DNA of 17,767 nt from a virus. Its lineage: Duplodnaviria; Heunggongvirae; Uroviricota; Caudoviricetes. Below, piece after piece: positions 12,001 to 15,000 of the stretch. Location of the stretch: IMG/VR virus record IMGVR_UViG_3300039320_000013; one strand, 5' to 3'. A program made the position numbers. Position 1 is the stretch's first letter. Each line of letters begins with the position of its first letter.

Positions 12001-15000
12001 TCCACATTGGCGTGTTTTGACATGAACCCCCGGAATGTCTCTTCACCGGCTTCCCGGGCTTTACGGTACTCCCGGTACAGAAAGGCCTCATCCACTGAAT
12101 AGCCGAGATTCGGATTGACCATGGCGAGGTTTTCCATCAGCAGGTGAGCCCCGCTTTCCACCATTTCAGGAGGGTGTTCAAATATCACCGGCAGAAAGTG
12201 CGGATCATTAATTTTGCCGTCGCGCACATCCCGGGCGTACTGCAGTTTCTGTCTGAACACCCCGGCTGGCTGTTCATTCGACTGGGTGGTCGTATACACC
12301 ACAAACCCTTCCGGGCGGGAGGCAAGCCCGCCGATGGCTTCACGTAACATGTCCTCCGCCTTGTACTGCTTGCCAAACAGCCACAACTCATCAATCAGCG
12401 TCCCCACGGACTTGATACCGGACACCGTATTCGGATCGGCTGCCACCACCTTCAGGGTGGTGTCCGTCACCCGGTGGGTGATGGTCCGGATATGTGTCTG
12501 CACCTGACAGAGGTCATCCAGATCATCGTCCCGTCGTACCATATCCCTGGCAGGATTGAAGGCGTTGGCTGCCACCTCCACAGTCGGGGCCAGAATCGTG
12601 TAACCCGCCGCCTGCCGCCAGTTCAGTAACAGCGCCGTCATCATGATCCCGGCGGCCAGTGTGGACTTGCTGTTTTTTTTGGGTATCAGAATGAACACTT
12701 CCTTGATATGGCGGACACCGGTCTGCGCATCGTAGGAGCCAAACAGAGCCGCCACTAGGTCAAACACCCACTGTGCACAGGACTCCCCGAACGTCGGGCT
12801 ACCCGGTGCATCCACAATCCGCAGTTGTTTAAAAATCGCCAGGGCATGTGCGGCCTGGTCCGGATAAATCGGAGCCGGAATAATCGACAGCCCCTTTTTC
12901 AGGCGCTCTGCCCAGTCCGGGCAGGCCGTGCTCCATACAGGTATCATCCGTTGCCCTCATTATCGTTATTCACCACCAGTCGTGGTGGTGGTGGTACCGC
13001 AAAACGGTTAGCCGCTTTTTTCGCGGCATCACCTTTTGCCGATTTTTTACCGGCATCGCCTTTTTTATGGTGTGTGAACTGCGCCAGTCGCCAGGCCGCA
13101 TCCAGTGCCAGTTTCGGATCAATGCTGAGGTTTTCCACCAGGATCTGCCCCATAGCTTTCACCGGATCGGGAAGACCATCCTCCATATATTCAATACCAT
13201 GAGACATCACCGCGGGCGGTGGCATCTCCGGATTGTTTTCGTCCGGCTGTGGTATTGCAGCCGCCTCACGGCGACGGGGTTTATCCTCCTGCTCTGATTT
13301 TTTCTGCCGGTAAACAGGAACCTCATCCACCTCCACCGTTTCGCACTGTTTACGGGCTATAAACGCGAGCACCTCCGGATCTTTTGCCAGCTGCGAGCCT
13401 TTAACCCTGGCGGTCTTCGCCGAATAACCGGCGGCAATGGCTGACGCTGTTTTGTTTTTCCCGGACATGAGCGCCAGCGCAAATTTTCGTTTTTGCGTTG
13501 TCAGCACAGCCTCCTCCCGGGTCCAGAACGCACTCAGCCGGGTATGGTTCAGCCCATTTTTCCCGGCGTCTCATGCCGCAAATGTTAACTGCTGCCTGGT
13601 TAACATTTTCTGAAAAAGCCAGTTAACATTTTTTTCGCACAACAAACTGAATAATAAAGATAAAAACCGCAAAAATGCCCGGGCAGCCAGTTAACATGTT
13701 AACTGCCCTGAAACGGGAATTTTTTCTCTGCGTGAGAGGGGGCGCGGTGTCCAAAGCGATCGTTTTTTACGCCGGATGATACCCCCCCCGGGTCGGGTTA
13801 CAGTCCGATGATGTCGTCCGCTCTGCCACTACCTCCGGACACCTCCGGCAGCGTCGGGTCCGGCATACCACCCGCCGCTTCACGAGCAGACTTTTGTCGA
13901 TGGCATTCGGTACAGAGCGTCCAGAGATTCGTCTCCTCATTACCACCACCGAACTGAAGTGCAATTCGGTGATCAAGTTCACTGTCACAGAGGTCAACCA
14001 CACGACCACAGATACAGCACTGCCCGGCGTCCCTGAGCCAGATATGACGCACGTGCACTGCCACTGACACGACGCTGCTCCCCCTTCAGAATATTCACCC
14101 GTCGGGTATTCAGTGTTTTGATTCTGCTCTGGAGTGTACGAAGCTGAGCCATGTAAAATCCCCGTCATATGGCAATCAGTAAAGGAAATAAATATGTCAT
14201 CGAAAAACCGGACCCGCAGAACCACAACCCGCAATATCCGTTTCCCCAATCACATGATTGAACAGATCAACATCGCCCTTGAGCATAAAGGATCCGGTAA
14301 CTTTTCAGCGTGGGTTATTGAAGCCTGCAGGAGAAGGCTGGCAACAGATGCAACGCATCTGTTGCCCGGCCAGCATGACAAATAACGAGAAATGAACGTT
14401 CGGTTACAGGAGCAGGTACCCACCGTCCTCCAACAATATTTCATCTTCATATCCGACGGAACAAGACTTACCCTGCCGGGATGTACAGAATAACAACAGA
14501 GTGATAATTAATTTCTGATGAAATAATCAGGGTGCAGAAGGACTAAAGATAAACGTTTTCTTCACGCCTTTACACGGCCTGTCCTTCTCAAATCGCCATT
14601 TTGCCATCGCCTTTACAACCTGCTCATCAAACAAATGGTGCGGCTCTGAACGGATAAACTCAATTCGGGTGACAGTACCATCAGCACCAATATCAAACTT
14701 CACATCAACCCGTCCCTTTATATAATTTGCCGCTGCATAGGCCGGATATTGTGGTAATGCCTTAACCAACTGTCGGGGCATATCTGTTTTATGTTGCGTA
14801 CAGCCCATAACCAGAGAAGACAACAAAATAATTAACGGAAGATTTCTTTTCATTTTCATTCCCGGCACAGATAAGAATAAGTCTTATTCTAACAATGCCA
14901 CCCTGTCGATCATTAATCCTCTGCTTAATGGCAACGACAATTATCCGGCTTAAATCACAAATCAGACACATGACATAACAGGGCTTGCGAGGTAACACAT

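What the first reader, a model, noticed from the sequence alone, without database searches (positions are those of the whole stretch)
14874..14890. Perfect 17-bp AT-rich palindrome in the leader of the TonB-like lipoprotein gene
AGAATAAG-T-CTTATTCT lies 14 nt upstream of the start codon, the position of an operator for a dimeric regulator. With its flank (GATAAGAATAAG...) it has partial resemblance to the hexamer repeats of a Fur box. That would be striking for a TonB-domain gene, since host tonB is iron-regulated, but the match is imperfect and could be chance.
Basis: inference. Interest (0 to 1): 0.45.

Follow-up and report, generated by a model that had tools for sequence, protein, structure and literature searches.

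The report
Palindrome on a prophage moron promoter
A perfect 17-bp inverted repeat sits on the likely promoter of a prophage gene for a TonB-like lipoprotein and scores like a weak-to-average site for the iron regulator Fur, but it is missing from the gene's commoner relatives, so iron control is possible, not shown.

Summary
The palindrome AGAATAAG-T-CTTATTCT is at 14874-14890 exactly as described. It lies upstream of a minus-strand gene for a lipoprotein with a complete TonB C-terminal domain. That gene is an accessory "moron" between the Rz lysis gene and the terminase genes of an E. coli lambdoid prophage.

A palindrome of this kind is not rare: 46% of random windows contain one.

Its position is informative. 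Its upstream arm overlaps the only extended -10 promoter motif in the window (TGTTAGAAT, correct strand). The predicted transcription start falls at its centre, so it spans about -11 to +6 of the gene's own promoter.

A Fur matrix built here from 16 K-12 promoters gives the palindrome-centred 19-mer 11.9 bits. True sites scored 7.5-21 (median 14), and about 1% of composition-matched leaders reach 11.9.

Several points count against Fur:
- There is no partner site 6 bp away.
- The best match to the Fur consensus is 13/19.
- The downstream arm is polymorphic.
- The downstream arm is missing from the common clade B, and clade C keeps the symmetry with a non-Fur-like sequence.

Verdict: a real promoter-overlapping palindrome. 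A repressor operator, with Fur as the best tested candidate (about 25%), is slightly more likely than an incidental palindrome. Modest interest.

The parts
14874..14890 (.). Perfect 8-1-8 palindrome AGAATAAG-T-CTTATTCT (sense strand: AGAATAAG-A-CTTATTCT)
   Evidence: It is the only match in the window with up to 3 mismatches.
14886..14894 (-). Extended -10 promoter motif TGT-TAGAAT. The hexamer is 14891-14886 and overlaps the upstream arm of the palindrome.
   Evidence: It is the only TGNTANAAT in the window on either strand. It is invariant in 48 clade A haplotypes. Clade B has TGTCAGAAT and clade C has TAAAAT at the same aligned place. Promoter function is inferred; no transcription-start data exist.
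14878..14882 (-). Predicted transcription start. +1 is about 14879, 7 nt after the -10, which gives a 5' UTR of about 26 nt.
   Evidence: Inference from standard sigma-70 spacing. Not tested.
14873..14891 (.). Fur-matrix 19-mer AAGAATAAGTCTTATTCTA, 11.9 bits, centred on the palindrome
14870..14888 (.). Weaker overlapping Fur-matrix 19-mer GATAAGAATAAGTCTTATT, 8.1 bits, offset 3 bp. It matches the 19-bp consensus at 13 of 19 positions.
   Evidence: The 13/19 count was made by eye from the sequence.
14839..14857 (.). Second Fur-matrix hit (11.5 bits), lying over the start codon and the N-terminal part of the signal peptide
   Evidence: It may simply reflect A-rich Lys/Met codons.
14860..14863 (-). 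Ribosome-binding site GGGA, 6 nt before the ATG at 14853
   Evidence: Read from the sequence. Clade B has AGGA at the same place.
14527..14853 (-). Gene for a 108-aa lipoprotein with a TonB C-terminal domain (stop codon included)
14860..15002 (-). Leader specific to this moron. Sequence shared with lambdoid phages that lack the gene begins at about 15002.
   Evidence: GC is 0.43 in the leader and 0.55 in the whole window.
14940..14945 (-). GATAAT, invariant in clades A, B and C: a possible alternative -10. It has no usable -35 and no TG extension.
   Evidence: for conservation. The -35 was read from the sequence.

Best explanation
The palindrome lies on the core promoter of an accessory prophage gene (a moron) that encodes a lipid-anchored TonB C-terminal domain. 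Its upstream arm is the -10 element of an extended -10 sigma-70 promoter (TGTTAGAAT). Its centre is about where transcription starts. Its downstream arm covers +1 to +6.

The downstream arm occurs only in this clade of the gene, where about 14 nt are present that the commoner clade B lacks. It turns the -10/+1 region into a symmetrical 8-1-8 site. The most likely role of such a site is an operator: a dimeric repressor bound there would shut out RNA polymerase.

The only candidate I could test is host Fur with bound iron. It fits moderately. If it binds, the gene would be repressed in iron-replete cells and de-repressed together with the host TonB-dependent uptake systems.

What is shown: the palindrome, the gene, the motif overlap, the conservation pattern and the matrix score. 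What is inferred: promoter activity, the transcription start and any protein binding.

Confidence, part by part:
- Palindrome overlaps the promoter: about 0.65.
- It is an operator for some dimeric regulator: about 0.4 (this is the value entered as the confidence).
- That regulator is Fur: about 0.25.
For: - Gene and setting. The gene is a TonB_C lipoprotein between Rz and the terminase genes of an E. coli lambdoid prophage. It has lower GC than its flanks.
- Autonomous expression. In LF82 lysogens the clade B orthologue is transcribed 8-fold above prophage background while Rz and terminase stay silent, so the family has its own promoter (PMC9928086 Table 1 and S1).
- Promoter motif. TGTTAGAAT is the only TGNTANAAT in 17.8 kb on either strand. 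It sits in the 143-nt leader in the right orientation; 1.27 are expected per window, which by my arithmetic is about 0.005 per leader.
- Conservation. The block 14881-14898 is invariant in 48 haplotypes. No aligned difference falls between 14861 and 14897 in a lineage at 88% protein identity whose flanks have diverged (L004). The -10 is kept as TGTCAGAAT in clade B and TAAAAT in clade C.
- Fur matrix. It was built from 16 K-12 Fur promoters. The site scores 11.9 bits and ranks 2nd in the window. Leave-one-out scores of true sites run 7.5-21.2 with median 14.1; fhuA scores 11.6, fur 11.7 and tonB 12.7.
- Fur nulls. Only 0.75-1% of shuffled or Markov leaders reach 11.9 bits, as do 3.6% of palindromes with the same half-site composition.
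- Clustering. There are 3 hits of at least 11 bits in the 523-nt moron against 0.10 expected.
- Matrix validation. The matrix finds the gel-shift-verified nohA site of prophage Qin at 16.8 and 16.4 bits (PMC2189734).
- Polymorphism. The commonest variant in the palindrome (14875) raises the Fur score to 12.9.
Against: - Palindromes of this size are common by chance.
- The Fur consensus has no match within 3 mismatches. Positions +-1, +-3, +-7 and +-9 of the 19-mer score negatively.
- There is no partner site at +-6 bp (0.3 and -1.8 bits). The verified nohA site has two strong sites 6 bp apart.
- AT-rich non-Fur K-12 DNA reaches 11.9 bits 1.2 times per kb, and prophage Qin background reaches 10.3.
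- The downstream arm is polymorphic at 2 of 8 positions, no better conserved than the leader as a whole.
- Clade B, present in about 1200 of 5426 E. coli genomes, lacks the downstream arm. Its best Fur score is 3.5, and in LF82 its expression does not track host tonB.
- Clade C keeps the symmetry in 7 of 7 hairpin pairs, with two double changes, in a sequence that does not score as Fur. That favours symmetry as such over Fur specificity.
- The Klebsiella phage homologue has neither a palindrome nor a Fur-like site.
- No transcription-start, binding or iron-response data exist for this clade.
Confidence: 0.4

Rival explanations
1. Promoter only, with an incidental palindrome. The upstream arm is conserved because it is the -10 and discriminator region. 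The downstream arm is ordinary 5' UTR that happens to mirror it, or was made to mirror it by a template-switch (quasipalindrome-correction) mutation. Nothing binds the symmetry.
For: - 46% of random windows carry such a palindrome. This window has four, two of them inside a coding region where no operator is expected.
- Only the upstream arm is invariant. Both polymorphic positions are in the downstream arm.
- Clade B is expressed in lysogens without the downstream arm.
- Exact copies elsewhere lie in unrelated taxa, or inside a coding region of an unrelated phage group.
Against: - The palindrome falls in a 143-nt leader; about 0.005 are expected there by the Markov null (my arithmetic).
- The Fur-matrix score is reached by only 3.6% of palindromes of the same composition.
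- Clade C keeps the symmetry through two double substitutions, though with only 4 sequences 62 of 500 shuffles do as well.
Confidence: 0.35
2. RNA hairpin. In transcripts that start upstream (the Q-antiterminated late transcript from pR', or a promoter at the conserved GATAAT 14945-14940) the repeat folds into a 7-bp, 3-nt-loop hairpin about 20 nt before the start codon. It would affect mRNA stability, processing or translation.
For: - Clade C keeps all 7 feasible pairs despite 5 substitutions. Two pairs changed on both sides (G-C to A-U, A-U to G-C) and one became a U-G wobble that pairs only in sense-strand RNA.
- The commonest clade A variant (14875) gives a G-U pair.
- The gene lies in the same orientation as the late operon, so read-through transcripts must exist during lytic growth.
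Against: - The hairpin is very weak: -2.3 kcal/mol, formed in only 40% of the ensemble even in isolation.
- The covariation is not significant. 62 of 500 shuffles reach it. My enumeration gives 13% for 5 random transitions keeping all pairs and 5% for two double changes.
- The outer helix predicted around it is broken in L004 and in several haplotypes.
- Clade B lacks it.
- If transcription starts at the extended -10, the gene's own mRNA begins inside the repeat and cannot form it.
Confidence: 0.1
3. Operator for the prophage's own repressor or Cro, or a transcription terminator closing the lysis operon.
For: Lambdoid operators are about 17 bp and symmetrical. The site lies between two late-gene modules.
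Against: - In a 99.9% identical prophage (AR_0017) the immunity-region operators are TTGCG...CGCAA-type repeats with no resemblance. The 41 kb holds no other copy of the palindrome, only one non-palindromic 3-mismatch hit inside a coding region.
- As a terminator, the stem has a single G-C pair, there is no U-tract, the energy is -2.3 kcal/mol, and the terminator scan does not pick it up.
Confidence: 0.03

Closest known systems
E. coli Fur boxes (19-bp 9-1-9 sites, e.g. tonB, fhuA, fur), and the gel-shift-verified Fur site upstream of nohA in cryptic prophage Qin (Chen et al. 2007, PMC2189734)
   Same: - An AT-rich inverted repeat around a central base, with the AAT/ATT cores in register.
- It overlaps a -10.
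- Its matrix score (11.9 bits) is like the leave-one-out scores of fhuA, fur and tonB.
- The nohA precedent lies in the late region of a lambdoid prophage, between the DUF3950 gene ynfO and the terminase-like nohA.
   Different: - There is no second site 6 bp away.
- G/C replace T/A at the hexamer ends (GATAAG and AATAAG rather than GATAAT).
- The best match to the consensus is 13/19.
- It is not conserved in orthologous leaders.
- No binding or iron-response data exist.
Extended -10 (TGnTATAAT) sigma-70 promoters
   Same: TGT directly precedes TAGAAT (5 of 6, with A2 and T6), at a suitable distance from a ribosome-binding site and ATG, and no good -35 is present.
   Different: No transcription start has been mapped. 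Clade B has the weaker CAGAAT and clade C lacks the TG.
Lambdoid morons in the Rz-to-terminase slot, such as lambda bor and its homologue iss
   Same: - It occupies the same slot; in UTI89 and phage 21 the clade B gene sits next to iss/bor.
- The product is a small lipoprotein.
- GC is lower than in the flanks.
- The clade B gene is expressed from the prophage in lysogens.
   Different: It points the same way as the late operon, whereas bor is on the opposite strand. No terminator was found. The product is a TonB C-terminal domain of unknown function.

Membership tests
Fur box (E. coli Fur operator) | A 19-bp 9-1-9 site that scores within the range of proven sites in a position weight matrix | tested here: inconclusive
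   The site scores 11.9 bits. Leave-one-out true sites score 7.5-21.2 with median 14.1. AT-rich non-Fur K-12 DNA reaches 11.9 bits 1.2 times per kb, and prophage Qin background reaches 10.3. About 1% of composition-matched leaders reach it.
Fur box (E. coli Fur operator) | Close match to the consensus GATAATGATAATCATTATC | tested here: not met
   No match within 3 mismatches anywhere in the window. The best register is 13/19 at 14870-14888 and the centred register is 10/19 (both counted from the sequence).
Fur box (E. coli Fur operator) | Overlapping sites 6 bp apart, allowing two dimers, as at high-affinity sites | tested here: not met
   The registers at +-6 score 0.3 and -1.8 bits, and the only partner is 8.1 bits at a 3-bp offset. 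The verified nohA site has 16.8 and 16.4 bits 6 bp apart.
Fur box (E. coli Fur operator) | Overlaps the -35/-10 of the repressed promoter | tested here: met
   The 19-mer 14873-14891 covers the TAGAAT hexamer at 14891-14886 and the predicted +1. The promoter itself is inferred.
Fur box (E. coli Fur operator) | Conserved in orthologous promoters | tested here: not met
   The best score is 3.5 bits in the clade B leader and 7.5 in clade C, the latter over the start codon rather than at the palindrome. The Klebsiella phage homologue reaches 3.8.
Fur box (E. coli Fur operator) | Fur binding in vitro or in vivo, and iron- and fur-dependent expression | not testable with these tools
   No data were found for clade A. 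Clade B in LF82 does not follow host tonB, but it lacks the site.
Extended -10 sigma-70 promoter | TG one base upstream of a -10 hexamer that matches TATAAT at 5 of 6 or better, in the right orientation upstream of the gene | tested here: met
   TGTTAGAAT at 14894-14886 on the minus strand is the only such motif in the window.
Extended -10 sigma-70 promoter | A mapped transcription start 6-8 nt downstream | not testable with these tools
   No transcription-start data were available.
Phage moron | An accessory gene between phage modules, with deviant base composition, transcribed in the lysogen independently of the late genes | tested here: met
   It lies between Rz and the terminase genes, and related phages lack it. 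GC is 0.41 against 0.55 for the window. Lysogen expression is shown only for the clade B orthologue, LF82_160, at 8-fold above background.
Intrinsic (Rho-independent) terminator | G+C-rich stem followed by a U-tract | tested here: not met
   It is not reported by the terminator scan. The stem has one G-C pair and folds at -2.3 kcal/mol.
Lambdoid CI/Cro operator | The same sequence as the repeated operators in the prophage's own immunity region | tested here: not met
   The AR_0017 prophage operators are of the TTGCG..CGCAA type, and there is no second copy of the palindrome in 41 kb.

The most novel reading that the evidence does not exclude
One clade of a widespread prophage gene for an outer-membrane-anchored TonB C-terminal domain has been wired into the host Fur regulon. 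The wiring is a clade-specific 14-nt difference that creates a Fur operator on its -10/+1. The phage would then make its TonB mimic exactly when iron starvation floods the envelope with TonB-dependent receptors. One conceivable purpose is to block TonB-dependent phages and colicins by occupying TonB boxes. The sister clade B would remain constitutive.
Probability: 0.2. Interest if true: 0.6.

Novelty: new member of a known kind. Interest (0 to 1): 0.33.

Why it matters
If the site is a working Fur operator, it would show how a prophage accessory gene acquires host-signal control through a tiny indel, with a natural unregulated control (clade B) in hundreds of genomes. It would also tie an uncharacterised, very common phage-borne TonB-domain lipoprotein to iron-starvation physiology; about 30% of complete E. 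coli genomes carry one clade or the other. If it is only a promoter with an accidental mirror image, the useful result is smaller: the probable promoter and true start codon of this moron are now located.

Tried and rejected
- **Relatives in reference genomes.** A protein-guided scan of one genome per species found no relative.
- **Exact palindrome in reference genomes.** The scan returned 120 hits, all in unrelated, mostly AT-rich taxa, about what chance predicts. No regulon emerged.
- **Exact palindrome in viral contigs.** 47 hits are this same moron. The other 73 were not in the TonB context; the ten I printed lie inside a coding region of an unrelated phage group.
- **Search for more clade C-like leaders.** The pattern GGATAATG-N70-95-AAAATGAAAAGAA gave 6 viral and 120 metagenome hits. 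A distant-mode BLAST of the clade C leader found only clade A at about 70% identity.
- **Phage repressor operator.** Rejected.
- **Terminator.** Rejected.
- **Longer RNA structure.** A 6-bp outer helix around the hairpin gives -11.5 kcal/mol but is broken by natural variants and in L004.
- **Klebsiella phage homologue (40% identity).** Its leader is unrelated, with no palindrome and no Fur-like site.
- **Other regulators.** I compared the site from memory with the ArgR, Lrp, RcsB and ArcA consensus motifs. Some half-sites look similar but the spacing is wrong. This was not a test, because no matrices were available.
- **Literature.** No paper was found on this protein, on its RefSeq accessions, or on Fur control of it.
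Full report
**What is there.** Bases 14874-14890 read AGAATAAGTCTTATTCT, two 8-nt arms that are fully complementary around one central base. All the neighbouring genes are on the minus strand. They form the late region of an E. coli lambdoid prophage:
- lysozyme, 15996-16529
- Rz, 15192-15659
- a 108-aa ORF, 14527-14853
- an HNH endonuclease
- small and large terminase subunits

The window is 99.9% identical over this stretch to a prophage of E. coli AR_0017 that is inserted next to mlrA.

The 108-aa product has a lipoprotein signal peptide (MKRNLPLIILLSSLVMGC) followed by a complete TonB C-terminal domain. It matches Pfam TonB_C at E=1.3e-14 and solved E. coli TonB C-terminal domains at E about 4e-16.

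**True start codon.** The real start is almost certainly the ATG at 14853, for three reasons:
- PGAP uses it.
- GGGA at 14863-14860 is correctly spaced as a ribosome-binding site only for it.
- The first ATG is ATA in 3 of 48 natural haplotypes.

**Is the palindrome more than chance?** Not by palindromy alone. Simulated sequences of this size and dinucleotide content carry 0.59 perfect 8+8 palindromes with a 0-1 nt spacer, and 46% carry at least one. The window itself has four, two of them inside the tape-measure ORF.

Exact copies in a collection of 185,000 species genomes are scattered over unrelated AT-rich taxa. In viral contigs, the copies outside this moron that I inspected fall inside a coding region of an unrelated phage group. 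So there is no sign of a shared operator or regulon built on this exact sequence.

**The gene is a moron with three leader types.** Homology to lambdoid phages that lack the gene resumes at about 15002. GC is 0.41 in the moron against 0.55 for the window.

In complete E. coli genomes, 414 carry this form (clade A), with a leader 95-100% identical. About 1200 carry clade B, which is 72% identical in protein and has a leader that BLAST does not align. Clade B is the form in phage 21, Perceval and UTI89, where it sits beside bor/iss. A third form, clade C, was found once.

In the AIEC strain LF82, the clade B gene (LF82_160, "TonB fragment") is transcribed 8-fold above prophage background, while Rz and terminase on either side stay at background (PMC9928086). 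So the family has its own promoter.

**The palindrome sits on the probable promoter.** On the sense strand the leader reads ...CATTGTTAGAATAAGACTTATTCTTATCTGTGCCGGGAATGAAAATG. TGT-TAGAAT (14894-14886) is an extended -10 motif. It is the only TGNTANAAT in the whole window on either strand. With 1.27 expected per window, the chance of finding one in this 143-nt leader in this orientation is about 0.005 (my arithmetic).

It is conserved as follows:
- The stretch 14881-14898 is invariant in 48 clade A haplotypes.
- No aligned difference falls between 14861 and 14897 in a lineage whose protein is only 88% identical and whose flanking leader has diverged (L004).
- Clade B keeps TGTCAGAAT and clade C keeps TAAAAT at the aligned position.

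With standard spacing, +1 falls at about 14879. The palindrome therefore covers roughly -11 to +6, and its upstream arm is the -10 itself. A second conserved GATAAT (14945-14940) could be an alternative -10, but it has neither a -35 nor a TG. Promoter activity and the transcription start are inferred, not shown.

**The symmetry is clade-specific.** Clade B shares CATTGTYAGAATAAGAC and then lacks 14 nt, including the whole downstream arm. Within clade A, both polymorphic positions of the palindrome (14875 in 3 haplotypes, 14880 in 1) are in the downstream arm. The palindrome as a whole (2 of 17 variable positions) is no better conserved than the leader (about 22 variable positions in 143).

Clade C has AAAATAGA-G-CCTGTTTT in the same register. 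All seven pairs of a 7-bp, 3-nt-loop hairpin are kept despite five substitutions. Two pairs changed on both sides, and one became T-G. This is suggestive of selection for symmetry. With four sequences, however, 62 of 500 shuffles do as well. By my enumeration, 13% of random sets of five transitions keep all pairs. As RNA the hairpin is feeble, at -2.3 kcal/mol.

**Fur test.** I fetched 16 Fur-repressed promoter regions from K-12 MG1655 and built a symmetrical 19-bp matrix by iterating from the classical consensus.
- Validation: leave-one-out scores of the true sites run 7.5-21.2 bits with median 14.1. The matrix also finds the independent, gel-shift-verified nohA site of prophage Qin as 16.8 and 16.4 bits 6 bp apart, as described in PMC2189734.
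- Result: the palindrome-centred 19-mer 14873-14891 scores 11.9 bits and ranks second in the window. A 19-mer offset by 3 bp scores 8.1 bits.
- Nulls: 0.75-1% of shuffled or Markov-simulated leaders reach 11.9 bits. So do 3.6% of palindromes made by permuting the half-site. AT-rich non-Fur K-12 DNA reaches it 1.2 times per kb.
- Clustering: the moron has three hits of at least 11 bits in 523 nt against 0.10 expected. One lies over A-rich codons at the start of the gene and one lies 3' of it.

Points against Fur:
- No 6-bp-phased partner site is present.
- No match within 3 mismatches of the consensus exists.
- The score is in the lower third of real sites.
- Nothing comparable occurs in the clade B, clade C or Klebsiella leaders.
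- Clade C preserves the symmetry with a sequence Fur should not recognise.

The clade B gene in LF82 does not follow host tonB across conditions. This is uninformative for clade A, because clade B lacks the site.

**Other readings tested.**
- Operator of the prophage's own repressor: no. The immunity-region operators of the identical prophage are unrelated, and there is no second copy in 41 kb.
- Terminator: no.
- Larger RNA structure: the outer helix is broken by natural variants.

**Conclusion.** The palindrome does lie where a repressor would act, on the -10 and start site of the moron's promoter. It scores as a plausible but weak, single-dimer Fur site.

My estimates:
- About 0.65 that it overlaps the functional promoter.
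- About 0.4 that the symmetry serves as an operator.
- About 0.25 that the regulator is Fur.
- About 0.35 that the mirror image is incidental.
- About 0.1 that it acts as an RNA hairpin in read-through transcripts.

This is a new instance of known kinds of element (an extended -10 promoter with a candidate operator on a phage moron), and it is of modest interest. It would become more interesting if reporter, EMSA or ChIP data showed iron control of a phage-borne TonB mimic.

Noticed in passing
window 13688-13705: An 18-bp perfect palindrome, CAGTTAACATGTTAACTG, lies in the intergenic DNA between the HNH endonuclease gene and the small terminase gene. That is a plausible place for a cos or terminase recognition element in an HK97-type packaging module.
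   Followed up: no
window 2306-2324, 2898-2914, 13688-13705, 14874-14890: The window holds four perfect 8+8 palindromes with a 0-1 nt spacer against 0.59 expected. Two are inside the 1028-aa tape-measure-like ORF.
   Followed up: partly
window 14699-14726 (+ strand): A strong sigma-70-like promoter match (TTCACA-16-TATAAT, 11 of 12) lies antisense inside the TonB-domain gene and points towards its 5' end and the palindrome. It could drive an antisense RNA, or it could be a by-product of the N-Y-I-K codons.
   Followed up: no
window 14497-14515 and 14839-14857: Two further Fur-matrix hits, at 12.5 and 11.5 bits, lie just 3' of the gene and over its start codon. With the palindrome they make three hits of at least 11 bits in 523 nt against 0.10 expected.
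   Followed up: partly
window 14857 (first ATG 14859-14857): The upstream in-frame ATG is ATA in 3 of 48 haplotypes and in the dog isolate L006. One viral contig has an extra 6-nt copy of ATGAAA here. The start of the gene is a small tandem repeat, ATGAAA-ATGAAA.
   Followed up: partly
window 15099-15163: A 10-bp perfect inverted repeat, TATCCCCGCA/TGCGGGGATA, with 45 nt between the arms lies in the DNA just 3' of Rz that many lambdoid phages share. Its function is unknown.
   Followed up: no
window 14530-14853 (protein): The protein matches PHROG 1267 at 7.7e-43, and that family is labelled 'Rz-like spanin'. Pfam and solved structures say it is a TonB C-terminal domain. The PHROG label is probably an error caused by the gene's position.
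   Followed up: partly
L002 1471-2022 (phage Lys8385Vzw) and Stx1a-converting phages LC744181-4: These phages carry an insertion of about 735 bp, encoding a Rha-family regulator, between Rz and the moron leader. The leader and palindrome are left intact.
   Followed up: no
L470 2589-2613 (K-12 Qin prophage, between nohA and ynfO): The published Fur site upstream of nohA lies in the late region of a cryptic lambdoid prophage, next to a DUF3950 gene like the one at window 14194-14385. This is a precedent for Fur sites in this part of lambdoid prophages.
   Followed up: partly
L469 (AR_0017 prophage, beyond the window): The same prophage also carries TolA-like, OmpC-like porin and SASA-family esterase (the product name used for NanS-p homologues) accessory genes, plus two tRNA genes downstream of Q. 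It therefore holds several envelope-related morons.
   Followed up: no
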